A stretch of 64,000 nt of DNA from assembly GCA_964558115.1 (NCBI GenBank), contig CAZLCI010000001.1, positions 6,336 through 70,335 on the forward strand, in the 5' to 3' direction. The notes beneath the pieces were generated by a model that was given only the letters and a program-made list of their open reading frames with translations, was not told the DNA's origin and did not search any database. Position numbers and translations under genes: made by a program. Origin of the DNA: an uncultured Nitrospinaceae bacterium. GTDB taxonomy: Bacteria; UBA8248. Below are positions 11,535 to 44,226 of this stretch, in pieces; position 1 is the stretch's first letter, and each line of letters opens with the position of its first letter.

Positions 11535-12674
11535 TTGGATAACCAGTACTATGAAACATATCTTCGAAAGACTTCATTGTCAGAAGTTTTGCAGAAAGTA
11601 GATAAAGGAGATAGATTATCATTTGAAGACGGTCTCTCTTTATACGCTTCAAATGATATTAATGCGATAGGATACTTAGCTAATAAAGTTCGAGAACGAC
11701 TTCATGGTAATCGTACTTTTTACAATGTGAATAGTCATATTAATTATTCGAATGTTTGTGTCTTGTGGAAGGCTTGTAAATTTTGTGCTTTTGGAAAAAA
11801 AGAAGGGCAGCAAGATGCGTACTCCTATTCGTTAGAAGAAATTTTTAAACAGGCGGAAGAACTGGGGAAAGGCCGTACGGAATTTCATATGGTCGGAGGC
11901 CTTCATCCTGACTTACCGTTTGATTATTACTTAGAGATGATTCACGGTATTAAGGAAATTCATCCTCATCTTCATCTGAAATGTTTTACTTCAACTGAAA
12001 TACGTTGGATTGCAGATCATATTGCCAAGATGAGTATTGAAGAAACTTTGGAAACATTGGTTAGAGCAGGACTTGGTTCCCTTACAGGTGGAGGGGCTGA
12101 AATTTTTGCAGAGCCAACAAGATCGAAAATATGCAAAGGGAAACAGTCTGCAGAGGATTGGCTAGAAGTTCACCGAATTGCACACAACATGGGATTATCT
12201 AGTACATGTACTATGTTATATGGCCATATTGAGACTGATGCTGATAGAGTAGATCATATGTTACAACTTCGAGAATTACAGGATGAGACCAATGGTTTTA
12301 CAACATTTATTCCACTATCCTTTCACCCCGATAATACACAAATGAGTGATGTACGTCCTTCTGGTGGCATTTTAGATTTAAAGAATTATGCTGTTAGTAG
12401 ACTTTTATTGGATAATATTCCACATATTAAAGCTTATTGGATTATGGTTGGTCTTCCTATTGCTCAATTAAGTCAACAATATGGAGTAAATGATTTAGAT
12501 GGGACTGTTGTTCAAGAAAAAATTTATCATATGGCTGGAGCTCAAACTCCATCTGAATTAACGGTTGATTATATACGAAATATTATTAGGGAAGTTGGTA
12601 GAGAGCCAGTAGAAAGAGATACCCTCTATAATGAGGTGATTCGTGAAGGAGAGAAATGGGCAGTTCATGCTTAA
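11535..12674 (+). CDS. Radical SAM enzyme of the MqnC/MqnE family (futalosine pathway)
   Basis: 379 aa; NYSNVCVLWKACKFCAF cysteine motif (Cx5Cx2C), HPDLP, TGGGAE, paralog of ORF 15020; MqnC vs MqnE assignment not resolvable by eye. Confidence 0.75.
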   Translation: MDNQYYETYLRKTSLSEVLQKVDKGDRLSFEDGLSLYASNDINAIGYLANKVRERLHGNRTFYNVNSHINYSNVCVLWKACKFCAFGKKEGQQDAYSYSLEEIFKQAEELGKGRTEFHMVGGLHPDLPFDYYLEMIHGIKEIHPHLHLKCFTSTEIRWIADHIAKMSIEETLETLVRAGLGSLTGGGAEIFAEPTRSKICKGKQSAEDWLEVHRIAHNMGLSSTCTMLYGHIETDADRVDHMLQLRELQDETNGFTTFIPLSFHPDNTQMSDVRPSGGILDLKNYAVSRLLLDNIPHIKAYWIMVGLPIAQLSQQYGVNDLDGTVVQEKIYHMAGAQTPSELTVDYIRNIIREVGREPVERDTLYNEVIREGEKWAVHA

Positions 12675-14965
12675 GACTCGGAACAGTTCCTTTCATTAAT
12701 GCAAGACCTCTTACATTCAGTCTCGAAAATAATGAAAACATTCAAATTGTTAGTTTCCCTCCTAGTGAACTATCTTCACTTTTAAAAGATAATAAGTTAG
12801 ATGGTGCATTAGTTTCTTCGTTTTCTTTATTTAGATTAAAGAATTCTAGATATGTGCCTAAAATTGGGATAGTAAGTAATGGTCCAGTAGAAAGTATTCG
12901 CCTGTATTGTAGAAAACCCGCGGATACATTGCAGGTGGTTGGTCTAGATTCTTGGTCTCTTTCCGCAAGCAATATGTTACGCGTTCTGCTGAAACACCGA
13001 TGGGGAGTAGAACCAAAGTTCGTTCCTGTAAATCCCAAAATACCTCCAAAAGAAGATAATCAATTAGATGCATTTCTTTTAATTGGTGACAATGCATTAA
13101 GAGAGCCTCCAGGAGATTTTTATGTGGTGGACTTAGGAGATGAATGGACTGCGTTCACAAAGCTTCCTTTTGTGTATGCAGTCTGGGTTTTCCCGGAAGG
13201 TAAAGGAAATTCTGATATCGCGTGTGAATTAATTAAATCAAAAGAAGAAGGGATTAAGAATCTAGATAAAATTACTTCTGTTCTTGCAAGTGAGAATTTA
13301 TTTATAAAAGAAGGAGATATCCGTAATTATTTAACAAATTGTATTTTATACGATGTGGGAGAAAAAGAGGAAGAAGGGCTAAATTTATATTACGATTACT
13401 TACAGAAAGATGGTCTTGTGGAAAAAGGATGGATTGCGAGGAAATTACCTGTACCAGACATTCGTTTCCATAAAGAAGGAGCAGAAAATCAAAAGGAAGA
13501 TTTAGAAATTTTTAATTCTTCTAATTCTCAAGAAGACGAGCAACTTTGTTTTAAATCTATTGCTGATGTGTCTTCCATGATTAGAGAAAAGAAAATTTCA
13601 CCTTTAGATCTTACACAGTCTTTCTTGAAACAAATTGAAAAAATAAATAGTAAATTGAACGTATACGTTACTGTTACAGAAGAAGAAGCGTTAAAAAAGG
13701 CGACAAAGGCAGAGAAAGAAATCAATAGAGGAAATTATAGAGGCCCTTTGCACGGTATCCCTTTTGCGGCAAAAGATATCATTAATACGGAGAAAATCCT
13801 TACTACAAATGGTTCTAATTTTTTTAAAGATCATTACCCTGACAAGGACGCGTTTGTAATAAGTTCTCTTTACGATGCAGGTGCTGTTTTGTTGGGTAAA
13901 GTGAATACTCATGAGTTTGCTGGGGGTTCAACAACCATCAATCCATTCTATGGTACTACTAAAAATCCATGGAATACCGAGAGGATAGTAGGAGGTTCTA
14001 GTGGAGGTTCTGCGGCTGCCGTAGCTTCGTATTTGACGACTTTTTCATTGGGAACCGATACAGGCGGTTCGATAAGAACTCCTGCTGGTTTTTGTGGTGT
14101 TGTAGGTCTTAAGCCTACTCATGGAAGAGTAAGTTTATCTGGAGTTTGTCCAAACGTTTTGAGCTTTGATCATGTAGGACCGATGGCAAGAAGTACAGAA
14201 GATATAGCTATAATTCTTGAAAGTATGGCAGGGTATGATTTTCAAGATTCTAAATCTAAAGATATTCCTGTTCCAGAATATTCTTCAACCATTGATCAGG
14301 GAATCAAGGATAAGAGGATTGTTATCTGTCCGGATTTTTATAATCATTCTGATGTCGATTCTGCAGTACGAGAAAATTTTGAAAGTGCATGTTTGGTTTT
14401 TGAAAGTCTAGGAGCAATTGTAGAGGAGATCCCTTTCCCACATTTTGAAAAAGTAATGAATATTTTTCCGAAGATAGCTGGACCGGAGTTTTCAGAATTT
14501 CATAGATCCTTTTTTGAAAAGAATCCAAAAAGTTATGGAGAAGATATTTTAAAACGTCTTGATTGGTCTTTTGAAATTTCAATGGACGAGTACGTTAGAG
14601 GTTTGCGTGAACGTGAAATTTTCCAAAGAGAAATGGAGGAATTTTTCAAAACTTTTGATGCTCTTATTTCTCCGGCTCTTCCGTGTGTTGCTCCAACAAT
14701 AGAAGGTCTCAAAGCTAATATAGACAAAAAAGAAATAGTTTATGATTATCTGCATCGACCATTTTTAACTCCTCATAATGTAACAGGATTTCCTGCATTA
14801 GTTTCTCCTACGGGATTTGACCAAATTGGGATGCCTACCTCTATACAGATTGTTTCTGGTCCATGGAAAGAGGAAAGTTTATTCCAGATTGCGCATGCTT
14901 TTGAAAAAGAGAGTTCATCATATAGAAATGTTATTCCTGAAATTATACTTAGAGAGAATGGTTAG
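12656..14965 (+). CDS. mqnA: Bifunctional-looking fusion: MqnA chorismate dehydratase domain (aa ~1-275) + amidase-signature enzyme (aa ~295-769)
   Basis: N-term LRLGTVPFINARPL MqnA motif; C-term typical AS-family N-terminus (ISPLDLTQSFLKQIEKINSKLNVYVTV), AAKDII Lys, GGSSGGSAAAVA Ser-cisSer-Lys block; single uninterrupted 769-aa ORF. Confidence 0.75.
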   Translation: MGSSCLRLGTVPFINARPLTFSLENNENIQIVSFPPSELSSLLKDNKLDGALVSSFSLFRLKNSRYVPKIGIVSNGPVESIRLYCRKPADTLQVVGLDSWSLSASNMLRVLLKHRWGVEPKFVPVNPKIPPKEDNQLDAFLLIGDNALREPPGDFYVVDLGDEWTAFTKLPFVYAVWVFPEGKGNSDIACELIKSKEEGIKNLDKITSVLASENLFIKEGDIRNYLTNCILYDVGEKEEEGLNLYYDYLQKDGLVEKGWIARKLPVPDIRFHKEGAENQKEDLEIFNSSNSQEDEQLCFKSIADVSSMIREKKISPLDLTQSFLKQIEKINSKLNVYVTVTEEEALKKATKAEKEINRGNYRGPLHGIPFAAKDIINTEKILTTNGSNFFKDHYPDKDAFVISSLYDAGAVLLGKVNTHEFAGGSTTINPFYGTTKNPWNTERIVGGSSGGSAAAVASYLTTFSLGTDTGGSIRTPAGFCGVVGLKPTHGRVSLSGVCPNVLSFDHVGPMARSTEDIAIILESMAGYDFQDSKSKDIPVPEYSSTIDQGIKDKRIVICPDFYNHSDVDSAVRENFESACLVFESLGAIVEEIPFPHFEKVMNIFPKIAGPEFSEFHRSFFEKNPKSYGEDILKRLDWSFEISMDEYVRGLREREIFQREMEEFFKTFDALISPALPCVAPTIEGLKANIDKKEIVYDYLHRPFLTPHNVTGFPALVSPTGFDQIGMPTSIQIVSGPWKEESLFQIAHAFEKESSSYRNVIPEIILRENG

Positions 14966-15019: not shown

Positions 15020-16093
15020 ATGGCAGAAAAAAGATTTTACGAGGTAATAGAGAAAACCTTACTTGGTGAAAGATTATCTTCAGATGACTGTCTTGTATTG
15101 TTTCAAGGTGATGACTTAGTTGCGCTCGGCGCTGCTGCTGATCAAATCAGAAATTCTTATCACCCAGGGCGTATTGCTACTTATTGCGTTGATCGAAATA
15201 TAAATTATACGAATGTATGTGATGTTTATTGTACATTCTGTGCATTCTATAGACCTCCAGGTGGACATCCCGAATCATATGTAAGAACAAAAGAAGAAAT
15301 CAAGGAAAAGATAGATGAATTATATTCTTTGGGAGGAAAGCAGATTCTATTACAAGGAGGACACCACCCAGATCTGCGAATAGAATGGTATGAAGGTTTA
15401 TTTTCATGGATGAAGGCTGAATATCCCGATCTACATTTACATGCGCTGAGCCCTCCAGAGATTTATCATATTTCCAAACTAGAAGATATGCCGTTTGAAG
15501 TTGTAATAAATAGGTTGCATCAAGCTGGTCTTGATTCTATTCCAGGAGGTGGTGGGGAAATTTTAGTAGATCGAGTTCGAAACAAGATTTCAAAATTAAA
15601 AGTCAATACAGAAGGGTGGCTCGAAATTATGAGAGTAGCACACGGTCTTGGTTTGCGATCTACTGCTACAATGATGTTTGGTCATGTGGAAACTCTAGAA
15701 GAGAGAGTTGAACATTTAAATTCTTTAAGAGAATTGCAGGATCAAACAAAAGGTTTTACTGCATTTATTTGTTGGACTTTCCAGAATGACGGTTCTGCAA
15801 CTCTAAGAGTTCCCACAGTAGGTAGTAGTGAATATTTAAAAACATTGTCTATCAGCAGACTTTTTTTAGATAATATTCCAAATTTTCAATCTTCTTGGGT
15901 GACTCAAGGAATGAAGATTGGAGAACTTTCCCTTCACTATGGTGCAAATGACATGGGGTCTACTATGATTGAGGAGAATGTCGTGAGTTCTGCGGGCACG
16001 ACTTATTGCCTGAATGAAGAAGATTTGAGTGTCATGGCAAAGAATGCTGGTCTAGTGCCGAAAAGACGAAATTTTTTCTATGATTTAGTCTGA
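15020..16093 (+). CDS. Radical SAM enzyme of the MqnE/MqnC family (aminofutalosine synthase or cyclic dehydroxyfutalosine synthase)
   Basis: 357 aa; canonical NYTNVCDVYCTFCAF (Cx3Cx2C), PGGGGEI, paralog of ORF 11535. Confidence 0.8.
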   Translation: MAEKRFYEVIEKTLLGERLSSDDCLVLFQGDDLVALGAAADQIRNSYHPGRIATYCVDRNINYTNVCDVYCTFCAFYRPPGGHPESYVRTKEEIKEKIDELYSLGGKQILLQGGHHPDLRIEWYEGLFSWMKAEYPDLHLHALSPPEIYHISKLEDMPFEVVINRLHQAGLDSIPGGGGEILVDRVRNKISKLKVNTEGWLEIMRVAHGLGLRSTATMMFGHVETLEERVEHLNSLRELQDQTKGFTAFICWTFQNDGSATLRVPTVGSSEYLKTLSISRLFLDNIPNFQSSWVTQGMKIGELSLHYGANDMGSTMIEENVVSSAGTTYCLNEEDLSVMAKNAGLVPKRRNFFYDLV

Positions 16094-16103
16094 TTTTTCT
16101 TTC

Positions 16104-17381
16104 GTGAAAGAATTAAGTTTGGATAACACTAAAGATACATTTCAACTATGGACAGCCGATCTTATTTGCCCGGTAAACGATTTACCTATAAGAAATGGAG
16201 CAGTTTTAACTTCAAATGGTAAAGTTTTAGCAGTAGGAGAGGAAGAATTTATTCGTCCTCACAGCACTTTTGTAACCGAGAGACACTTTGAAAACTCGAT
16301 TCTTATTCCAGGACTAGTGAATTCACATACACATCTTGAATTAAGTGGTATGCAAATTTTACCATCGAAACTGTCGGAATGGATTCCAAATTTAGTATCG
16401 CAAACAAGAGAGTGGCCGAGTCATTTATTTCTTTCTTCCTCAAGGATTGGAACAGCTAAAAGTATTTCTTCAGGCGTAACCTGTGTTGGAGATATTAGCG
16501 TCTCGGGTGAGAGTAAGACAGCTATTGTTGATGCAGGAATGAGGGGCATAATTTTTCATGAATTTTTAGGAATTAATGAAAAAGAAGCTGAATCAATTTT
16601 TAATAAAAAAATAGCAGAAATTTATGAATCTAAGGATTACGAAGGAGAATCGAACGAATTTGTTCGTAATGGTCTTAGTCCTCATTCTCCTTATTCTGCT
16701 TCTTTCGATCTTTATAATAGAATTGTGTCTCATGGAAGTTCAAATAATTTCAAAGTAGCAACACATCTTCTTGAAAGTCCAGATGAGTTGCAATTTTTGC
16801 AGACTGGGGAAGGTGATTTTCAAGAGATGTTCGAAAGATTACAAAGTGATATAGATTTTTTTGAACCTTTCGGTTGCAGTCCCATAGAGTTTTTTAATCA
16901 AAAGGGGATTCTTCGAAATATTCATCTAACTATTCATTGTAATCAAACGGATGAAAATGATTGGAGATTATTACGGACAAACGGAGTCTATGTTTGTGTT
17001 TGTCCAAGGTCTGCATCTTTTTTTGATCATGCTTTAGCAGATATTCGAGGAATGAGGAATCAAGGAGTAATGTTGTGTCTAGGGACAGATAGTCTTGCTA
17101 GTTCTCCTTCTCTATCTGTTTTGGAAGAAGCAATAGCCTTAAGAGAAGCAGATAGTACTATCGAAGCAAGTGAACTTCTTATGTATTGCACACTCTCTGG
17201 TTCAAAGGCTTTAGGATTTGAAAATGAAGGAATTGGTTCAATTATGCCTGGAGGTGTTGCAGATTTTGCAGTTGTAGAAGTATCCAAAGACCATAAATAT
17301 TTAGATATAGAACATATTTTCGACAAACGTTCGGTTGTTGGATGTACTGTTATAAATGGGATGATACGATTTGAAAAATAA
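16104..17381 (+). CDS. Amidohydrolase-superfamily deaminase (aminodeoxyfutalosine/MTA/SAH deaminase-like)
   Basis: 425 aa; LVNSHTHLELS metal-binding HxH, downstream His/Asp ligands (GTDSLAS); position in mqn cluster. Confidence 0.6.
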   Translation: MKELSLDNTKDTFQLWTADLICPVNDLPIRNGAVLTSNGKVLAVGEEEFIRPHSTFVTERHFENSILIPGLVNSHTHLELSGMQILPSKLSEWIPNLVSQTREWPSHLFLSSSRIGTAKSISSGVTCVGDISVSGESKTAIVDAGMRGIIFHEFLGINEKEAESIFNKKIAEIYESKDYEGESNEFVRNGLSPHSPYSASFDLYNRIVSHGSSNNFKVATHLLESPDELQFLQTGEGDFQEMFERLQSDIDFFEPFGCSPIEFFNQKGILRNIHLTIHCNQTDENDWRLLRTNGVYVCVCPRSASFFDHALADIRGMRNQGVMLCLGTDSLASSPSLSVLEEAIALREADSTIEASELLMYCTLSGSKALGFENEGIGSIMPGGVADFAVVEVSKDHKYLDIEHIFDKRSVVGCTVINGMIRFEK

Positions 17382-38427: not shown

Positions 38428-39435
38428 GTGATAATTGACCCTCATGCCCATATAGCTCCACCTAGTTTTATAGAGGATGTAAGAAAAGGTAGTTTTGGTG
38501 ATTCTGTAATTATTGAACCAGGTGAAGACTGGGAATTTTTAACAACTAAGAATACGGTTTTGGGACAGGAAAGAATTCATAAAAATCCTCTTCCAAAAAC
38601 AACTTATGATGTTGATCTTAGGCTTTCTGATATGAAGAATATGGGAGTTGATATGCAGGTTTTATCAGTCGTTCCTCCCATGACATTTTACGCTTTAGAT
38701 GCAGGATTGAACAAAGAAATCTCCTCATCCTTAAATGATGCTTTAACTGAATTGACTAAGACATATCCTGAACAATTTCATTGCATGGCCCAGATTCCGC
38801 TTCAAGATCCAGATGCTGCTGCTTCTGAATTAGATCGTGCTGTAAAAAATGGGCATAAAGGTTGCCAGATAGCATCAAATGTTGCAGGAACAAATCTTGA
38901 CGATTCTAGTCTTGATGTTGTATGGGCAAAGGCTTGTGAATTAGATGTCCCTGTTTTTATTCACCCTTCAGATGTTATGGGAGTAAATGATCGTCTTAAA
39001 GACTACTATCTTCGCAATTTTATTGGCAATCCTTTAGATACAACAATTTCGATGGCTTGCTTAATTTTTGGTGGTGTTTTTGACAGGTTCCCAAATATTA
39101 AATTTTTAGTTTCCCACACTGGAGGTTTTACTCCTTGGATTCGTGGTCGCTGGGAACACGGTTATGGTGAAAGACGTGAGCCGAAGGTTAATGGGGCAAA
39201 AAATCCTGAGCAATATATTGATAATTTTTATTATGACACAATAATTCATAATGCTGATTCTTTTGAATTTGCAGTCAACACTTTGGGCTCTGAACGAATT
39301 TTATATGGGACGGATTACCCGTTTGATATGGGTTATTTAGGTGCAGCAAAGGATATTCCTGGACTTTCGCGATTGTCGGATGCAGATCAAGATAAAATCT
39401 TGAGTGGGAATGTAAAAGAACTTTATAAAATATAA
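38428..39435 (+). CDS. Amidohydrolase-2 (PF04909, ACMSD-like metal-dependent decarboxylase/hydratase) paralog 1
   Basis: 335 aa; IDPHAHIAP start, conserved HPxD, HxGG, GTDYPFD C-terminal motif. Confidence 0.75.
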   Translation: MIIDPHAHIAPPSFIEDVRKGSFGDSVIIEPGEDWEFLTTKNTVLGQERIHKNPLPKTTYDVDLRLSDMKNMGVDMQVLSVVPPMTFYALDAGLNKEISSSLNDALTELTKTYPEQFHCMAQIPLQDPDAAASELDRAVKNGHKGCQIASNVAGTNLDDSSLDVVWAKACELDVPVFIHPSDVMGVNDRLKDYYLRNFIGNPLDTTISMACLIFGGVFDRFPNIKFLVSHTGGFTPWIRGRWEHGYGERREPKVNGAKNPEQYIDNFYYDTIIHNADSFEFAVNTLGSERILYGTDYPFDMGYLGAAKDIPGLSRLSDADQDKILSGNVKELYKI

Positions 39436-39449
39436 TTTCTTTTTAGACT

Positions 39450-40472
39450 TTGGAGTTTAAGATGGTTATTGATCCTCACACGCATATTGTTCCTTCAGGT
39501 TTTTTAGAAGATGTTAGAAACAAAGCTTTTGGAGATACTGTAACCATTCAAAATGCGGATGGGAAGGAATGGATAGTTACGAAGAGTAATGTTCTTGGGA
39601 AAAGCAGGGAATTGAGAAATATTCTTACTCCGATGTATTATGAAGTTGATTTACGTTTAAAAGATATGGAGCGTATGGGAGTTAGTCGACAGATTCTGTC
39701 TGTTTCTCCGTCACTTACTTTTTATTCTCTAGACAAGTCGATTACTAATGATCTTGCTCAATCTATGAACGATGCACTAATCGAAATTTCAAATAATAAC
39801 TCTTCTGATTTTTCCTGTATGGCAACAGTTCCTCTCCAAGATCCTGAATTAGCAGCAGTAGAATTAGAACGTGCAATAAAAAACGGCCATCTTGGTGTTC
39901 AGATAGCGTCGAATGTTGCAGGCAAAAATTTGGACGATCCTAATCTGGATGTTTTTTGGCAAAAAGCACAAGATCTAGGGATTACTATATTTATCCATCC
40001 AATTGATACAATGGGTGCGGCAGATAGACTCAAGGATTTTTATTTACGTAATTTCATTGGGAATCCTCTTGATACAACTATAGCCGCTGCATGTTTGATT
40101 TTTGGAGGGGTTTTGGATCGTTTCCCAAATTTAAATTTCTTACTTTCTCATCTAGGTGGTTTTCTCCCTTGGATTCGAGGACGTTGGGAACATGGTTATG
40201 GAGAAAGAAGGGAACCAAAAGTACATGGTTCTAAGAACCCAGAAGAATATATAAATAGATTTTTTTACGATACCATAATTCATAATTCTGACTCATTTGA
40301 ATTTGCCGTAAAAACTTTGGGTTCCGAAAGAGTTGTGTATGGGACGGATTATCCAGCAGACATGGCGAATCATGAAAATTGTCGTGAAATTCCTGGAATG
40401 AGCAAATTGGAAGAGAAACAGCAGAATGAAATTTTGGTTGAGAATGTACGTAAGCTTTATCAAATTACTTGA
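39450..40472 (+). CDS. Amidohydrolase-2 (PF04909, ACMSD-like) paralog 2
   Basis: 340 aa; ~60 % identical to ORF 38428 by eye across full length (tandem duplicate). Confidence 0.75.
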   Translation: MEFKMVIDPHTHIVPSGFLEDVRNKAFGDTVTIQNADGKEWIVTKSNVLGKSRELRNILTPMYYEVDLRLKDMERMGVSRQILSVSPSLTFYSLDKSITNDLAQSMNDALIEISNNNSSDFSCMATVPLQDPELAAVELERAIKNGHLGVQIASNVAGKNLDDPNLDVFWQKAQDLGITIFIHPIDTMGAADRLKDFYLRNFIGNPLDTTIAAACLIFGGVLDRFPNLNFLLSHLGGFLPWIRGRWEHGYGERREPKVHGSKNPEEYINRFFYDTIIHNSDSFEFAVKTLGSERVVYGTDYPADMANHENCREIPGMSKLEEKQQNEILVENVRKLYQIT

Positions 40473-40546
40473 AAATAGATTTGTCTTTCGTTACTCTTTT
40501 TGTATTGATTTTAAATTTTTTTTTTAATTAAACTCGTGGGGTAAAG

Positions 40547-40828
40547 GTGTCAAAATTTGAAGTTGGAGAAGAAGTTCGAATAAAAGACACTTATTTCGAA
40601 GGTCATCATAGAACAACTGAATATGTGAAGGGCAAATCTGGAAAGATTATTCGTTATTTTGGAAATTACGAGAACCCTGAAATTCTTGCTTATGGTGGAG
40701 ACGGAAAGCCTTCCCAAGATCTGTATTGGGTTCAGTTTAATTTAAATGATCTTTGGGAACATAAACCAGGTGAGAAGAAGGATAAGTTGAATATTGAAAT
40801 CTATGACCATTGGATTGAAGCATTATAG
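40547..40828 (+). CDS. Nitrile hydratase beta-subunit C-terminal domain homolog (stand-alone, 93 aa)
   Basis: GTG start with RBS; matches only the C-terminal SH3-like half of NHase beta (EEVRIKD...GHHRTTEYVKGKSGKI...DLYWVQFNLNDLWE...IEIYDHWIE); in-frame TAA 18 nt upstream excludes a longer protein. Confidence 0.7.
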   Translation: MSKFEVGEEVRIKDTYFEGHHRTTEYVKGKSGKIIRYFGNYENPEILAYGGDGKPSQDLYWVQFNLNDLWEHKPGEKKDKLNIEIYDHWIEAL

Positions 40829-40848
40829 TTTCCTTAAGGAGAAAATAA

Positions 40849-41601
40849 ATGTCAGACAACCACCATGGAAGTGGGCATCATCATAATCATCCTCATGACA
40901 ATGAAAGTCCGTATAGTCACGATTTGTCATCGCATAATGCTCGAATGAAATCGGATGAAGCTTACATGGAAGATAAGGTTGTTCCTGTAGAGCACGATCT
41001 GGATTATTTTCAGGTACGTGTTGTTGGATTATTGAATCTTTTGAGAGAGAAGGGGATAGTAACTACTGATGAAATGCGACGTACGGTAGAGGATATATAT
41101 GCTCAAACTCCAACAACTGGTGCCAGGGTAGTTGCTCGAGCCTGGGTTGACGATGAATTTAAAGAACGTCTTCTTGCTGACGCACATTCTGCATGCGGAG
41201 AAATGGAAATAGATATAGAAGCAAGCAGTGTTACTAAATTGATAGTTGTTGAAAATACTGAAAGTTTACATTACATGGTCGTTTGTACTTTATGTTCTTG
41301 TTATCCAAGAGTACTTCTTGGACAACCTCCTACCTGGTATAAAAGTTTCCCTTACCGGTCAAAGGCAGTTACTGATCCTAGAGGTGCCTTGCTTGATTTG
41401 GGATACACTCCTCCAGAAGATATTGAATTAGTCGTTATAGATAGTAATGCCGACTGTCGATATCTTGTCATACCTCGTCGTCCAGCCGGAACAGAAGAAT
41501 TGGGAGAAGAGGCATTGTCTAGGCTCGTCACTCGTGATTCTATGATTGGTGTTGCAGATGCATTGACACCGGAAGAATATGAGAAGGTAGCGTTCGATTA
41601 A
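40849..41601 (+). CDS. Cobalt-type nitrile hydratase alpha subunit with His-rich N-terminal extension
   Basis: 250 aa; VVCTLCSCYPRVLLGQPPTWYKS metal-claw (Thr/Tyr = Co type), RYLVIPRRPAGTEELGEEALSRLVTRDSMIGV; first ~30 aa MSDNHHGSGHHHNHPHDNESPYSHDLSSH. Confidence 0.85.
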   Translation: MSDNHHGSGHHHNHPHDNESPYSHDLSSHNARMKSDEAYMEDKVVPVEHDLDYFQVRVVGLLNLLREKGIVTTDEMRRTVEDIYAQTPTTGARVVARAWVDDEFKERLLADAHSACGEMEIDIEASSVTKLIVVENTESLHYMVVCTLCSCYPRVLLGQPPTWYKSFPYRSKAVTDPRGALLDLGYTPPEDIELVVIDSNADCRYLVIPRRPAGTEELGEEALSRLVTRDSMIGVADALTPEEYEKVAFD

Positions 41602-42857
41602 TTAGTTTTCTTCTGTGTAGATAAAATTAATGCAGAAACTCCTGATATGATAAACATTAATGAAGCGATAGAAAATCCCCAATAGTAATTCAAGTGTATA
41701 TCATAAAGGAAGCCGGTGAACCATGCCCCAAATCCGCCAAAAATGGCAAAAAGACACATTGCGATACCATTTGTCTTGCCAAATTTTTCACCTGAAAAAT
41801 GGTCTGCCATTATTGCTGATGCAGTTGAACGTATAAGACCGAGAGCTATACCGTTTGTAATAGTTAATAAGTAAATTGACCATGGTGCGAAAGTAATATT
41901 GTATTTTCCTATCACGAACATTGAGATTACTCCGAGCAAACTACCTGTTAAAAACGTAGGAGTTCTTCCGTAGTAATCTGAAATTGAACTAATCAAATAG
42001 CCTACGATTAAAGATGCACCCCAGGTTGCAAAAATTCCTGCAGAAGAAAGATTCGTTATTCCGTGATCTGTCAAATGAGCAGGAAAGTGAACTAAGAGAA
42101 CAGTAAAAACATAAGCAATAGGCAGAAATAAAAATAAAAAAAGATAAAAACGAAATGAAAAAAAATTAACGGGGTCATTATGAATGTTTTTTGGAAAAGA
42201 TTTTTCTTTTTTTGTATGTTTTTTCTCTAAATGTAAAAAAGGGTGATCGGCAACCGTATTTTTTTGTTCAGGAAGATCACGATGGAATATTGCTGCGAGA
42301 GGAAGTGTAATGAATAGAATCAAAACAGAAAAAAAAACGTAACTCATTCTCCAGCCAAGAGCAAGAATGAGAATTGGCGTAAAAAAATTTAATATAAATG
42401 CAGTACCTTGAGCGGAACTAGAAATACCTAGAGCAAGTCCTCTTTTAGTAATAAACCAGTTAGAAAGAGTTGGTACTTGCGCAACCCAAGTACTTGATGC
42501 AAATCCAATATTCATAAGAAAGTAAGTTAGATAAAAGAAAGTAAGACTATTTATTTGACTTCCCAACAAGAGAGAAAGTCCGAAAACAGCAATTCCTGCA
42601 GACATTGTTAAACGTATACTTAATCTGTCAGAAATCCATCCAGAAAAAAGAGAGCAGACTGATTGTGCAAACATTCCAATTGAAAATGCAGCTGCAGTTT
42701 CAGCACGTGACCACGAAAATTCGTTTGAAATATCTTTAAAGAAAAAACCAAAACTTGAACGTGTTCCTATGAGTGAGAGCATTACAAAATAAACAATCGA
42801 AAGCACGATCCATCCATACCATATTTTATTTTGGTTTTTTTGTATTTTTAGTTTCAA
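41598..42857 (-). CDS. MFS family transporter
   Basis: 419 aa; 12 TM helices, central cytoplasmic loop. Confidence 0.65.
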   Translation of the reverse strand: MKLKIQKNQNKIWYGWIVLSIVYFVMLSLIGTRSSFGFFFKDISNEFSWSRAETAAAFSIGMFAQSVCSLFSGWISDRLSIRLTMSAGIAVFGLSLLLGSQINSLTFFYLTYFLMNIGFASSTWVAQVPTLSNWFITKRGLALGISSSAQGTAFILNFFTPILILALGWRMSYVFFSVLILFITLPLAAIFHRDLPEQKNTVADHPFLHLEKKHTKKEKSFPKNIHNDPVNFFSFRFYLFLFLFLPIAYVFTVLLVHFPAHLTDHGITNLSSAGIFATWGASLIVGYLISSISDYYGRTPTFLTGSLLGVISMFVIGKYNITFAPWSIYLLTITNGIALGLIRSTASAIMADHFSGEKFGKTNGIAMCLFAIFGGFGAWFTGFLYDIHLNYYWGFSIASLMFIISGVSALILSTQKKTN

Positions 42858-42881: not shown

Positions 42882-43205
42882 TTAGTTTTCCCAAAAGGAA
42901 TAGCCAGAAAAAGTTTTTTCTACTCTGTTCAATGCAGCTTTAGATAAACGTACCCCTTCAATTTCTACTTCGTGAATTTCAGGATGTTGCAATAACCTTT
43001 GTCTTACACCGAGTGCATAGGTAACACTTTTTAAAGGACATCCAAGACAAGCACCCTCAAAGGCAAGTTGAACAGTTTTATCATCTTTTATTTTAACAAA
43101 GCGTATACCACCGCCATGTATTTTTAAAAGTGGTTTGATTTGTGTTTCGATCAAGTCATTAATGTCTTTTTCTAATTCATGTTCTTTCATAAAAAAATAT
43201 ACCAT
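42882..43205 (-). CDS. NifU-like (Nfu-type) Fe-S cluster scaffold domain protein
   Basis: 107 aa; ...HGGGIRFVKI...AFEGACLGCP CxxC motif of Nfu C-terminal domain. Confidence 0.65.
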   Translation of the reverse strand: MVYFFMKEHELEKDINDLIETQIKPLLKIHGGGIRFVKIKDDKTVQLAFEGACLGCPLKSVTYALGVRQRLLQHPEIHEVEIEGVRLSKAALNRVEKTFSGYSFWEN

Positions 43206-43206
43206 T

Positions 43207-44226
43207 TTATTTTTTGATAAATTCTTTTTTCTTAGATTCCAGATCTATATCGAATAATCTTGCTTGGTTCTCTGCTAAAATATTTCTTTTGTCTTCTTCT
43301 GTAATTTCTGGATAACCGTAATCCTCTTGAAGTTGTTCGTCAATTTTCATGTTCCATATCCAATCTAGGATAGGTCTTGGATTTCCAAGAAGTGGTGCTT
43401 CTGAACCCCACAGAATTCGATCAGAACCTACATCTCTTAGTAGCCTTCCTATCCACTCTTTAAAAGTTCTTGGTGCGACCATAGGAGTATGGCCTATGCC
43501 TGAAAGAACTAAGAAAACATTTGGGTATCTAGAGGCAATCCAGACGGTTTCTTCAAAATATGGGACGGCTAGATGATGTATTCCAAAAGATAAATCCGGA
43601 AAATCCATCGCAGCTCTTTCAATATCTAGAGGAGAAAGGTCCCTTAAACTAGCTCTCGTAATTGGATTGCCTTTATGGAACTGAAAAATTTTCATTCCAA
43701 GTTCAAGACCTTTTTCATATAGAGGATAGGCAATTTCTGGATCATCACATGCCCAAGACTTTCCATCTACATGAGCATTGTATATTTTAATTGATTTTGC
43801 TCCCATTTCTTTAACCTGTTCTTCCATTTGTTCCAGTGCTCCCTCTAAACTTGGGTACATAGGATCAACTGCGCCACAAAATAAAACTCTTTCTGGAAAG
43901 GCTTTTGAAAATTCATACTGTGCTTTCACGGGAGCGAAACCATCTTTGTAAAGATCAAATAAAGGAACTGCTTGGGCCATTGCCATATCTGTTCCAGAAT
44001 CCTCAAAAAGCAATTTGCCAAGGTCTTCGGAAGTCCATTTCCTAGCAAAGCCTTGAATTGGATCCCAGGAAGAGTAAATATCGTTTTCTGATCTTTGTCT
44101 TCGACCAAGAACTTTATTTAGATGATATTGTCTATCAAAATCACTCTCTTTTGATTTTAAGTTTTCGTCAGAATAGTCGTACATATGAACAACGTTATCG
44201 AAAATGAATACGTCTTTCTCTATCAT
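43207..44226 (-). CDS. Amidohydrolase-2 (PF04909)-like metal-dependent hydrolase
   Basis: 339 aa; FIFDNVVHMY N-term, FGIHHLAVP, ILWGSEAPL C-terminal motif; distant from the tandem pair. Confidence 0.5.
   Translation of the reverse strand: MIEKDVFIFDNVVHMYDYSDENLKSKESDFDRQYHLNKVLGRRQRSENDIYSSWDPIQGFARKWTSEDLGKLLFEDSGTDMAMAQAVPLFDLYKDGFAPVKAQYEFSKAFPERVLFCGAVDPMYPSLEGALEQMEEQVKEMGAKSIKIYNAHVDGKSWACDDPEIAYPLYEKGLELGMKIFQFHKGNPITRASLRDLSPLDIERAAMDFPDLSFGIHHLAVPYFEETVWIASRYPNVFLVLSGIGHTPMVAPRTFKEWIGRLLRDVGSDRILWGSEAPLLGNPRPILDWIWNMKIDEQLQEDYGYPEITEEDKRNILAENQARLFDIDLESKKKEFIKK

What the first reader, a model, noticed from the sequence alone, without database searches (positions are those of the whole stretch)
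40547..41601. Cobalt-type nitrile hydratase alpha subunit with a His-rich N-terminal tail, partnered only with a 93-aa beta C-terminal-domain protein
ORF 40849..41601 is unmistakably an NHase alpha subunit with the cobalt-type claw VCTLCSCY and the downstream RYLVIPRRPAGTE...VTRDSMIGV block. It carries an extra N-terminal segment rich in His (MSDNHHGSGHHHNHPHDNESPYSHDLSSH) that resembles the tails of Ni/Co metallochaperones (HypB, UreE, CooJ). Canonical NHases need a ~230-aa beta subunit whose N-terminal helices wrap alpha. Here the upstream gene (40547..40828) encodes only the C-terminal SH3-like half of beta, and an in-frame TAA 18 nt upstream rules out a longer beta. No beta N-terminal domain is encoded in the flanks. 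Split beta subunits exist in thiocyanate hydrolase and toyocamycin nitrile hydratase, but there both halves are adjacent. This could be a minimal or new NHase-superfamily architecture with a built-in cobalt-binding tail, or the half-beta could be an activator-like protein (P14K/NhlE type).
Basis: partly seen in the sequence, partly recalled or inferred. Interest (0 to 1): 0.7.

Follow-up and report, generated by a model that had tools for sequence, protein, structure and literature searches.

The report
Nitrile hydratase lacking half its beta subunit
A lineage of uncultured marine and sediment bacteria (Nitrospinota and relatives) carries a conserved cobalt-type nitrile hydratase that appears to have lost the N-terminal half of its beta subunit, a part thought to be essential, and has a longer histidine-rich tail on the catalytic subunit.

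Summary
ORF 40547..40828 (93 aa) is a nitrile hydratase (NHase) beta C-terminal domain only. ORF 40849..41601 (250 aa) is a Co-type NHase alpha with an intact VCTLCSCY claw and a ~50-aa His-rich N-terminal tail. No beta N-terminal domain (bN) is detectable in the 64-kb window, even at E<=50.

This is not an artefact. The same module (one or two ACMSD-like Amidohydro_2 genes, a 93-113 aa beta_C, a His-tailed alpha, then usually MFS transporters) recurs in at least 7 distinct contigs. The alphas form a clade with 200/200 support, named Nitrospinota or Tectomicrobia by sources. Both genes and the tail are under strong purifying selection (dN/dS 0.04, 0.04, 0.005).

The nearest relatives are three-gene NHases (bN + bC + alpha, the ToyJKL/AnhDEA type). 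About 70 of 80 outgroup loci have bN adjacent.

The His-rich tail is not special: 88% of those relatives also have one. Here it is about twice as long.

The half-beta is an orthologue of the bC subunit and keeps the betaArg157-equivalent Arg22. It is not a P14K/NhlE-type activator.

Most likely this is a bN-less, activator-less variant of the three-subunit NHase. An unlinked bN gene cannot be excluded. A complex model could not be obtained.

The parts
40529..40531 (+). In-frame TAA stop 18 nt upstream of the beta_C start codon. It excludes a longer beta.
   Evidence: Sequence read. The six-frame ORF starts just after it.
40547..40828 (+). Half-beta subunit: 93-aa NHase beta C-terminal (SH3-like) domain, GTG start.
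   Evidence: Pfam PF02211, E 1.6e-19. Matches PDB Co-NHase beta residues 129-217. dN/dS 0.039 against L095. Orthologues of 93-113 aa lie next to alpha in all clade loci.
40610..40612 (+). Codon for Arg22 (GHHR motif). This is the equivalent of betaArg157 (P. thermophila), the beta C-domain arginine that hydrogen-bonds the oxidised active-site cysteines.
   Evidence: Ungapped alignment register to 3qxe_B and 1ire_B (138 aligns to 3). H20, R22 and T23 are invariant in 25 paired sequences. The role of betaArg157 is taken from PMC7587978.
40836..40841 (+). AAGGAG ribosome-binding site 7 nt before the alpha ATG. The 20-nt gap between beta_C and alpha suggests co-transcription.
   Evidence: Sequence read.
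40849..41601 (+). Co-type NHase alpha subunit, 250 aa.
   Evidence: Pfam PF02979, E 9e-71. TIGR01323 scores 223 bits, below its cut-off of 249.85. PDB Co-NHase alpha about 1e-49. AF2 gives a canonical alpha fold from residue 53, mean pLDDT 82.5. dN/dS 0.041.
40849..40989 (+). His/Asp-rich N-terminal tail (codons 1-47), including the subclade motif HNARMKSDxxY. Predicted disordered.
   Evidence: pLDDT below 50 for residues 1-33, with a weak helix at 36-41. 10 His in the 52 residues before helix 1. 1 nonsynonymous versus 17 synonymous differences against L095, dN/dS about 0.005.
41281..41304 (+). Metal-binding claw V-C146-T-L-C149-S150-C151-Y (Co-type signature).
   Evidence: Sequence read. C146, T, L, C, S, C, Y and P are invariant in 115 aligned alphas.
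38428..39435 (+). ACMSD-like Amidohydro_2 protein A, upstream in the same orientation.
   Evidence: Pfam PF04909. 62% identical to paralogue B. Orthologues are linked to beta_C and alpha in every clade locus.
39450..40472 (+). ACMSD-like Amidohydro_2 protein B. It ends 74 nt before beta_C.
   Evidence: Pfam PF04909. E 1e-43 to ACMSD structures 4igm and 2hbv. Linkage shown.
41598..42857 (-). MFS transporter, convergent with alpha and overlapping it by 4 nt. One or two copies are conserved next to the module in most clade loci with enough flank.
   Evidence: Pfam MFS_1. Weak matches to lactate and oxalate/formate-type models. Orthologues in L001, L006 and L094.
42882..44226 (-). NifU-like protein (42882..43205) and a third, divergent Amidohydro_2 (43207..44226). 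Possibly part of the same island.
   Evidence: Pfam. An Amidohydro_2 gene sits in the same position in L094. No orthologue was found in the other loci held.

Best explanation
This is a lineage-specific, two-gene variant of the activator-less, split-beta ('three-subunit') cobalt nitrile hydratases of the ToyJKL/AnhDEA type. The gene for the beta N-terminal half has been lost.

Shown:
- The alpha subunit has a complete Co-type claw and a canonical predicted fold.
- The 93-aa partner is the orthologue of the beta_C subunit. It keeps Arg22, the equivalent of betaArg157, one of the two beta arginines that hydrogen-bond the oxidised cysteine ligands.
- Both genes, and the His-rich tail, are under strong purifying selection.
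- The module is conserved in synteny across a monophyletic clade named Nitrospinota or Tectomicrobia by sources.

Inferred:
- Alpha and beta_C assemble into a minimal enzyme that still hydrates a nitrile. Its active site would lack the betaArg52 and Tyr residues and the pocket wall that bN normally supplies, so it is probably more open or has altered specificity.
- The disordered His/Asp-rich tail captures Co(II) and hands it to the claw in cis. That would fit the lack of a recognisable activator gene among the genes profiled within about 10 kb, and could cover the chaperone role reported for bN in ScNHase.
- The substrate is probably taken up or exported by the adjacent MFS transporter(s). 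It is probably processed together with the tightly linked ACMSD-like amidohydrolase-fold enzymes. This could be a nitrile-bearing carboxylate, or the amide product could be hydrolysed to release ammonia. The substrate is unknown.
For: - Domain and claw identity.
- No bN in the 64-kb window or in seven distinct clade loci (window, L001, L004, L006, L008, L094, L095/L096), even at E<=50. Synteny of those loci.
- The same scan finds bN (75-133 bits) next to bC and alpha in about 70 of 80 outgroup loci. This includes a Nitrospinota three-gene locus (L025) and the natural bC-alpha fusion P0131.
- The clade is monophyletic in 200 of 200 NJ bootstraps. Its most frequent sister is L012 (136/200), which also lacks a separate bN gene and retains one bN-like helix plus a His-rich linker fused to alpha. 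This suggests stepwise reduction.
- Clade-specific replacements occur at positions that are invariant in enzymes with a full beta. In alpha: R172K (65/65 Arg outside the clade), E183D (64/65), M/L203C. In beta_C: LYRV to LYWV. These are consistent with a remodelled interface.
- Purifying selection: dN/dS is 0.039 (bC), 0.041 (alpha) and about 0.005 (tail).
- No accessory-protein model matches the half-beta, and no P14K-type activator or NiCoT family appeared among the neighbouring genes profiled.
- From the literature: three-subunit ScNHase has no activator gene, and its bN (AnhD) acts as metal and swapping chaperone. ToyJ alone is catalytically active and self-modifying (PMC7329996).
Against: - The whole genome could not be searched, so an unlinked bN gene remains possible.
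- betaArg52 lies in bN (the conserved R of the DELRR motif). Mutating betaArg52 or betaArg157 abolishes activity in canonical NHase (PMC7587978). In ScNHase both bN and bC were needed for activity (PMC7329996). A bN-less enzyme might therefore be poorly active unless something substitutes.
- No residue in the tail is conserved across all subclades that could obviously replace betaArg52.
- No complex model could be made.
- The His-rich tail also occurs in enzymes that have bN, so it is not specifically a replacement for bN.
- The alpha scores below the NCBIfam equivalog cut-off (223 versus 249.85).
- There are no activity, metal or expression data.
Confidence: 0.58

Rival explanations
1. It is an ordinary three-subunit NHase whose bN gene has moved elsewhere in the genome. 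The enzyme is still alpha + bN + bC and nothing is mechanistically unusual.
For: Only 64 kb of this genome (40 kb upstream, 22 kb downstream) and at most 10 kb of flank in related contigs could be scanned. betaArg52 in bN is reported as essential (PMC7587978). Both halves were needed in ScNHase (PMC7329996). Some Nitrospinota do encode bN, in three-gene loci (L025; P0356 and P0361).
Against: bN is adjacent in about 70 of 80 outgroup loci, in either order, so the subunit genes are normally tightly linked. It is absent from all seven distinct clade loci. None of the 120 best bN relatives of a Nitrospinota bN sits on a contig whose length matches those carrying the clade's bC. This is a weak test. 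Clade-specific changes at otherwise invariant interface-type positions, and a sister lineage with a vestigial bN helix fused to alpha, fit loss better than relocation.
Confidence: 0.2
2. The alpha subunit is the whole enzyme, as ToyJ alone can be. The 93-aa protein is not a catalytic subunit but a maturation or stabilising factor, analogous to an activator or swapping chaperone.
For: ToyJ alone is active and self-modifying (Nelp 2014, as cited in PMC7329996). Known Co-NHase activators show weak similarity to beta (same paper). The half-beta gene lies directly upstream and is translationally close to alpha.
Against: There is no match to the accessory-protein model. The only NCBIfam hit is nitrile_beta positions 137-224. 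The closest relatives are bC subunits of three-gene enzymes at 40-47% identity. The catalytic Arg22 and the GHxRTP motif are invariant. In ScNHase the chaperone-like subunit was bN, and bC showed no such function (PMC7329996).
Confidence: 0.12
3. The pair is not a nitrile hydratase in function. It would be a diverged NHase-superfamily enzyme with another substrate (a thiocyanate hydrolase-like reaction, or another hydration or hydrolysis linked to the ACMSD-like decarboxylases).
For: The alpha is below the NHase equivalog cut-off. It is missing the bN pocket residues. It has a unique and conserved linkage to two ACMSD-like Amidohydro_2 genes rather than to a signature amidase. There are clade-specific changes near the claw (Y142, Q159, K172).
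Against: It scores higher to NHase alpha than to SCNase gamma (223 versus 173 bits, with the SCNase cut-off at 291; PDB 1e-49 versus 3e-35). It carries the full Co-type claw and the conserved RYLVxPxRP and TRDSMIGV blocks. It nests among loci annotated as NHase.
Confidence: 0.1

Closest known systems
Three-subunit Co-type nitrile hydratases: toyocamycin NHase ToyJKL (Streptomyces rimosus) and ScNHase AnhD-AnhE-AnhA (Streptomyces canus)
   Same: The beta subunit is split, with a stand-alone beta_C of about 95-100 aa directly upstream of alpha. The claw is Co-type CTLCSC. There is no P14K-type activator gene. The alpha groups with alphas from bN-bC-alpha loci (PMC7329996).
   Different: No bN (AnhD-type) gene occurs in any clade locus. 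The alpha N-terminal His-rich tail is about twice as long. There are clade-specific substitutions at otherwise invariant positions in alpha and beta_C. The module is linked to ACMSD-like Amidohydro_2 genes and MFS transporters.
Canonical (alpha-beta)2 Co-type NHases (P. thermophila 1IRE, P. putida 3QXE, B. smithii 1V29)
   Same: The alpha core is about 50% identical across residues 51-242. The claw is the same. The beta_C domain is homologous and keeps the betaArg157-equivalent.
   Different: There is no beta N-terminal domain (betaArg52, betaTyr68/72 and the pocket wall). There is no downstream activator gene. The beta_C is a separate 93-aa protein.
Eukaryotic fused NHases (Monosiga brevicollis and other opisthokonts)
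   Same: A His-rich stretch sits immediately N-terminal to the alpha domain (2-17 His between the beta and alpha domains; PMC3323583).
   Different: Those are single polypeptides with a complete beta (N and C parts) fused to alpha. Here the His stretch is the free N-terminus of alpha and bN is missing.
Thiocyanate hydrolase (SCNase alpha/beta/gamma, 2DD4)
   Same: The beta is split: SCNase alpha (126 aa) corresponds to beta_C and matches the half-beta at E 1.2e-6. The gamma subunit is homologous to NHase alpha.
   Different: SCNase has the bN-like beta subunit. The window alpha scores well below the SCNase gamma model cut-off (173 versus 291 bits).
Co-NHase activators / self-subunit-swapping chaperones (P14K, NhlE, NhhG)
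   Same: They are small proteins encoded next to alpha and are said to be weakly similar to beta (PMC7329996).
   Different: No hit to the accessory-protein model. The gene is upstream rather than downstream. It has full beta_C domain homology, including the catalytic Arg.

Membership tests
NHase alpha subunit, Co-type | NHase_alpha domain (PF02979) over the whole core | tested here: met
   E 9.3e-71, residues 54-236, profile positions 3-184 of 184.
NHase alpha subunit, Co-type | Metal claw C-(T/S)-L-C-S-C with the Co-type context V-C-T-L-C-S-C-Y | tested here: met
   VCTLCSCY at residues 145-152. Invariant in the clade and in 115 homologues.
NHase alpha subunit, Co-type | Score above the NCBIfam equivalog cut-off (TIGR01323, 249.85 bits) | tested here: not met
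   223.1 bits. It is the best-scoring model but sub-threshold, so this is a divergent subfamily.
NHase alpha subunit, Co-type | Cobalt content, Cys-SO2H/SOH modification, nitrile hydration | not testable with these tools
   Requires expression, ICP-MS, mass spectrometry and assays.
Canonical two-subunit NHase | Full-length beta of about 210-235 aa with an N-terminal domain (PF21006) carrying the betaArg52-type arginine | tested here: not met
   The beta ORF is 93 aa and bounded by a stop. No bN match in the window at E<=50.
Canonical two-subunit NHase | Adjacent activator or accessory gene (P14K/NhlE type for Co enzymes) | tested here: not met
   No accessory-model hit for the neighbouring genes scanned. 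ORFs under 110 aa were not all scanned.
Three-subunit (split-beta) NHase, ToyJKL/AnhDEA type | Stand-alone beta_C gene next to alpha | tested here: met
   93-aa PF02211 protein 20 nt upstream of alpha. Its nearest relatives are stand-alone beta_C proteins.
Three-subunit (split-beta) NHase, ToyJKL/AnhDEA type | Stand-alone bN gene next to beta_C or alpha | tested here: not met
   Absent in the window and in seven clade loci. Present in about 70 of 80 outgroup loci.
Three-subunit (split-beta) NHase, ToyJKL/AnhDEA type | Alpha groups phylogenetically with alphas of split-beta loci | tested here: met
   In an NJ tree of 103 alpha cores, all nearest outgroups come from bN+bC+alpha loci. ToyJ and AnhA sequences themselves were not available for inclusion.
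NHase activator / self-subunit-swapping chaperone | Match to the accessory-protein model; lacks the catalytic beta residues | tested here: not met
   The only NCBIfam hit is nitrile_beta positions 137-224. The GHxR Arg22 is conserved.
Thiocyanate hydrolase | Gamma subunit above the TIGR03887 cut-off (291 bits), plus alpha and beta subunits | tested here: not met
   173 bits. No bN-like SCNase beta is present.
NHLP-type RiPP precursor | Short precursor (about 80-120 aa) with an NHase-alpha-like leader, a core peptide, and nearby maturation enzymes | tested here: not met
   The TIGR03793 domain model is hit (54 bits against a cut-off of 50.9). However, the protein is a full 250-aa alpha with an intact claw, and no RiPP maturation genes are nearby. 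The hit reflects the shared ancestry of NHLP leaders with NHase alpha.

The most novel reading that the evidence does not exclude
The clade represents a truly minimal NHase in which bN has been dispensed with altogether. The extended, strongly conserved N-terminal arm of alpha would do in cis both of bN's jobs. The first is cobalt delivery and maturation, through the His/Asp-rich segment. The second is partial closure of the active site, through the conserved segment around residues 30-52, whose first helix is paralogous to bN helices. If so, the catalytic unit of the superfamily can be reduced to alpha plus an SH3-like domain supplying a single arginine. The alpha N-arm and bN would be interchangeable evolutionary modules, with a fusion, reduction and loss series visible in L087/L071, then L012, then this clade.
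Probability: 0.25. Interest if true: 0.65.

Novelty: new variant of a known kind. Interest (0 to 1): 0.5.

Why it matters
NHase mechanism and engineering assume that two beta arginines (betaArg52 in the N-domain and betaArg157 in the C-domain) and N-domain tyrosines are needed. They also assume that cobalt insertion needs either a dedicated activator or, in three-subunit enzymes, the bN subunit. A naturally conserved enzyme that keeps only the C-domain arginine and has no activator would have three uses:
- It would define the minimal catalytic and maturation unit.
- It would give a direct natural test of what the His-rich tails, widespread but uncharacterised in this subfamily, do.
- It would offer a compact scaffold of about 340 aa in total for biocatalysis.

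Ecologically, the module is conserved in Nitrospinota-related marine and sediment bacteria, next to transporters and ACMSD-like enzymes. This points to an unrecognised organic-nitrogen (nitrile or amide) utilisation route in a nitrite-oxidiser lineage.

Tried and rejected
1. Modelling the alpha + beta_C complex.
- An unpaired block alignment could not be produced, because MAFFT mis-aligns bC-only rows onto alpha or its His tail.
- The accepted job (concatenated window sequence plus alpha-only rows) left the beta_C part at pLDDT below 50. It gave no interface information.

2. Finding clade members in the species-representative genome collection.
These were useful as controls but not for whole-genome bN checks.

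3. Contig-length fingerprint test for an unlinked bN.
- None of the 120 best bN hits shares a longest-contig length with the clade's bC clusters. Only 120 of 2866 hits are visible, so this is weak.

4. The idea that the alpha tail is a fused remnant of the bN N-terminus.
- The bN profile does match alpha residues about 24-84 (23-33 bits).
- Ordinary alphas match at similar levels, through helix 1.
- I treat this as old paralogy, not a recent fusion.

5. NHLP/RiPP precursor reading: rejected (full-length alpha, intact claw, no maturation genes).

6. Promoter and terminator scan of 38.2-41.9 kb: uninformative, with fewer promoter-like sites than in shuffled sequence.

7. Literature searches for a bN-less NHase, for Nitrospinota NHase, or for the function of His-rich alpha tails found nothing specific. 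The Nelp 2014 paper itself is not held.
Full report
**1. What is in the sequence**

ORF 40547..40828 has a GTG start and encodes 93 aa. ORF 40849..41601 has an ATG start and encodes 250 aa. An in-frame TAA at 40529..40531 precludes a longer upstream reading frame. An AAGGAG lies 7 nt before the alpha ATG.

Pfam assigns the 93-aa protein to NHase_beta_C only (E 1.6e-19). It assigns the 250-aa protein to NHase_alpha (E 9e-71, residues 54-236).

Against solved structures, alpha matches Co-type NHase alphas at about 1e-49 over residues 51-242. The small protein matches only the C-terminal about 90 residues of Co-type betas (3qxe_B residues 129-217, E 2.4e-10).

The claw is the cobalt-type VCTLCSCY. 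In the ungapped alignment to 3qxe_B and 1ire_B, Arg22 of the half-beta (GHHR) corresponds to betaArg157 of the P. thermophila enzyme. betaArg157 and betaArg52 hydrogen-bond the oxidised cysteines, and mutating either one abolishes activity (PMC7587978). The other arginine, betaArg52, lies in the N-terminal domain. It is the conserved R of the DE(L/W)R motif in my bN alignment.

**2. Is a beta N-terminal domain really missing?**

I built a bN profile from ten sequences: two stand-alone bN proteins and the N-terminal parts of eight longer proteins that contain bN (full-length betas and one bN-bC-alpha fusion). I scanned all six frames of the window and of every locus fetched.

- In the window, the only match is the alpha subunit's own first helix (about 24 bits), both at E<=1e-4 and at E<=50 with ORFs of 15 aa or more.
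- Ordinary alphas give the same weak match. It reflects paralogy between the alpha N-arm and bN helices, not a hidden bN.
- The scan is sensitive. It recovers bN at 75-133 bits next to bC and alpha in about 70 of 80 related loci from many phyla.

**3. It is a conserved architecture, not an accident**

The alpha has a tight group of relatives: P0001-P0025, above 300 bits, 229-260 aa, all with His-rich tails. The score then drops to ordinary alphas of 204-215 aa.

Contigs encoding these relatives show the same module, set in conserved chromosomal synteny. The order is ScpA, CoA-transferase, PfkB and a CycH-Ig protein; then one or two Amidohydro_2 genes; then a 93-113 aa NHase_beta_C; then alpha; then usually MFS transporters, EamA, MsrA and NuoA/B. 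The loci are L001-L009, L094 and L095/L096. None has a bN.

Sources name members as Nitrospinota, Nitrospinae or Candidatus Tectomicrobia. The small protein is annotated 'SH3-like domain-containing protein' or 'nitrile hydratase subunit beta'. The window's own beta_C cluster includes Tara Oceans sequences, so the organism is a marine uncultured bacterium, probably Nitrospinota.

An NJ tree of 103 alpha cores makes the clade monophyletic in 200 of 200 bootstraps.

Comparison of the window with L095 gives dN/dS of 0.039 for beta_C and 0.041 for alpha. For the first 47 codons of alpha it gives about 0.005, from 1 nonsynonymous and 17 synonymous differences. dS is near saturation, so the values are rough. 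Even so, all three parts are clearly under constraint.

**4. Where it comes from**

The nearest outgroups have three adjacent genes: bN of about 80-105 aa, bC of about 94-100 aa, and alpha of about 205-225 aa. Examples are L010 (Binatia), L011 and L025 (Nitrospinota).

This is the arrangement described for toyocamycin NHase ToyJKL and for Streptomyces canus AnhD-AnhE-AnhA (PMC7329996). Stand-alone beta_C proteins of 90-125 aa are the closest relatives of the window half-beta in an exhaustive HMMER search, with 545 hits at E<=1e-3.

Other architectures exist in this radiation:
- bC-alpha fusions that still have bN upstream (P0131).
- bN, His-rich linker and alpha fused together without bC (L071, L083).
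- bC followed by a His-rich, bN and alpha fusion (L087).
- bC plus alpha alone within 10 kb on each side (L037, L038).
- L012, whose alpha carries one bN-like helix and a His-rich linker at its N-terminus and has no separate bN.

L012 is the clade's sister in 136 of 200 bootstraps. This suggests, but does not prove, a series of fusion, then reduction, then loss.

The clade has replacements at positions that are invariant in enzymes with a complete beta:
- alpha R172K (65 of 65 Arg outside the clade)
- alpha E183D (64 of 65 Glu outside)
- alpha M/L203C
- beta_C LY(R)V changed to LYWV

These fit a remodelled interface.

**5. The His-rich tail**

Among 67 outgroup alphas, nearly all from loci with bN present, 88% carry at least 3 His in the N-terminal tail. 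Typical starts are MPHDHDHDH... or MSDHEHHHH..., with a median of 25 residues and 5 His. The clade's tails have a median of 48 residues and 9 His. The tail is therefore a general, apparently undescribed, property of this activator-less subfamily. It is elongated here.

AlphaFold2 with 115 sequences gives a canonical alpha fold from residue 53 (mean pLDDT 82.5). Residues 1-33 are disordered, and there is only a weak helix at 36-41.

A cobalt-capturing role is plausible for three reasons:
- The composition is His/Asp-rich.
- Purifying selection on the tail is very strong.
- No activator gene was found among the profiled genes of the locus. The three-subunit ScNHase also has no activator gene (PMC7329996).

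An analogous His stretch sits just before the alpha domain in eukaryotic fused NHases (PMC3323583). The role is inferred, not shown.

**6. The half-beta is a subunit, not an activator**

- It hits no accessory-protein model. Its only NCBIfam match is nitrile_beta positions 137-224.
- It is orthologous to the bC subunits of three-gene enzymes.
- It retains H20, R22 and T23, which are invariant across 25 paired sequences.
- In ScNHase the chaperone-like activity resided in bN (AnhD), not in bC (AnhE) (PMC7329996).

**7. Context and likely role**

The two upstream genes are 62% identical paralogues of the ACMSD-type branch of the amidohydrolase superfamily (E 1e-43 to ACMSD structures). They accompany bC and alpha in every clade locus. 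Homologues also appear beside NHase genes in two outgroup loci, L017 and L062.

A convergent MFS transporter follows, with weak monocarboxylate and oxalate/formate-type matches. Then come a NifU-like protein and a third Amidohydro_2.

I infer a small catabolic or nitrogen-scavenging island acting on an imported nitrile-bearing compound. The substrate is unknown.

**8. Verdict**

The most likely reading (about 0.58) is a bN-less, activator-less variant of the split-beta cobalt NHases, conserved in Nitrospinota and relatives.

The main rival (about 0.2) is that a bN gene exists elsewhere in these genomes. I could not search whole genomes. An indirect contig-length fingerprint test was negative but weak.

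The lesser rivals are:
- Alpha works alone and beta_C acts as a helper (about 0.12).
- The pair has a non-nitrile function (about 0.1).

A model of the alpha and beta_C complex could not be obtained with the tools available.

I found no paper describing this architecture. Public annotation treats the genes as ordinary NHase subunits or as SH3-like proteins. I rate it a new variant of a known kind, of moderate interest.

Noticed in passing
window 12656..14965 (+), with 11535..12674, 15020..16093 and 16104..17381: A 769-aa protein fuses a menaquinone-biosynthesis domain (VitK2_biosynth, MqnA/MqnD-like) to a full amidase-signature domain. It sits in a futalosine-type cluster with two radical-SAM CofH/MqnC-like genes and an Amidohydro_1 gene. 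This is an unusual fusion. It is also the only signature amidase seen among the window ORFs profiled (those upstream of the nuo genes).
   Followed up: no
L071 9620-10585 and L083 9629-10585 (Alphaproteobacteria MAGs): This is the mirror-image architecture. bN, a His-rich linker and alpha are fused in one ORF. No beta_C is detectable within 10 kb on either side.
   Followed up: partly
L012 1018-2161 (Syntrophobacterales MAG; P0027 is similar): beta_C is followed by an alpha whose N-terminal extension holds one bN-like helix (SYFERRARATADLLKEKGVLS) and then a His-rich linker. There is no separate bN. This locus is the most frequent sister of the window clade.
   Followed up: partly
L037 9491-10570 and L038 9633-10603 (Dehalococcoidia / Chloroflexota MAGs): Two further lineages have only beta_C and alpha within 10 kb on either side and have short His tails. 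The bN-less arrangement may therefore have arisen more than once.
   Followed up: partly
L032 8456-9519 (Dehalococcoidia MAG): Three tandem bN genes precede a single beta_C and alpha.
   Followed up: no
P0153 (310 aa) and P0176 (394 aa): These are NHase-like bC-alpha and bN-bC-alpha fusion proteins in which the cysteine claw is replaced (VSSLGGSYP and VGTLDSSGYP). They are presumably metal-free relatives of unknown function.
   Followed up: no
window 41005..41100 (alpha residues ~53-84) and the same region of all related alphas: The first helices of NHase alpha (..YFQVRVVGLLNLLREKGIVTTDEMRRTVEDI) match the bN profile at E 1e-5 to 1e-9, including the DE(L/M)RR motif that holds betaArg52 in bN. 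bN itself looks like an internal repeat of this helix-turn unit. This suggests that the alpha N-arm and bN are ancient paralogues.
   Followed up: partly
window 42882..44226 (-): A NifU-like protein and a third, divergent Amidohydro_2 lie just beyond the MFS gene. The Amidohydro_2 has only weak PDB matches. An Amidohydro_2 gene occupies the same position in L094.
   Followed up: no
P0122/P0123 and L096 101-442: In the subclade closest to the window (about 84% alpha identity), beta_C carries a Lys/Glu-rich insertion of about 20 aa before the last strand (113 aa instead of 93).
   Followed up: no
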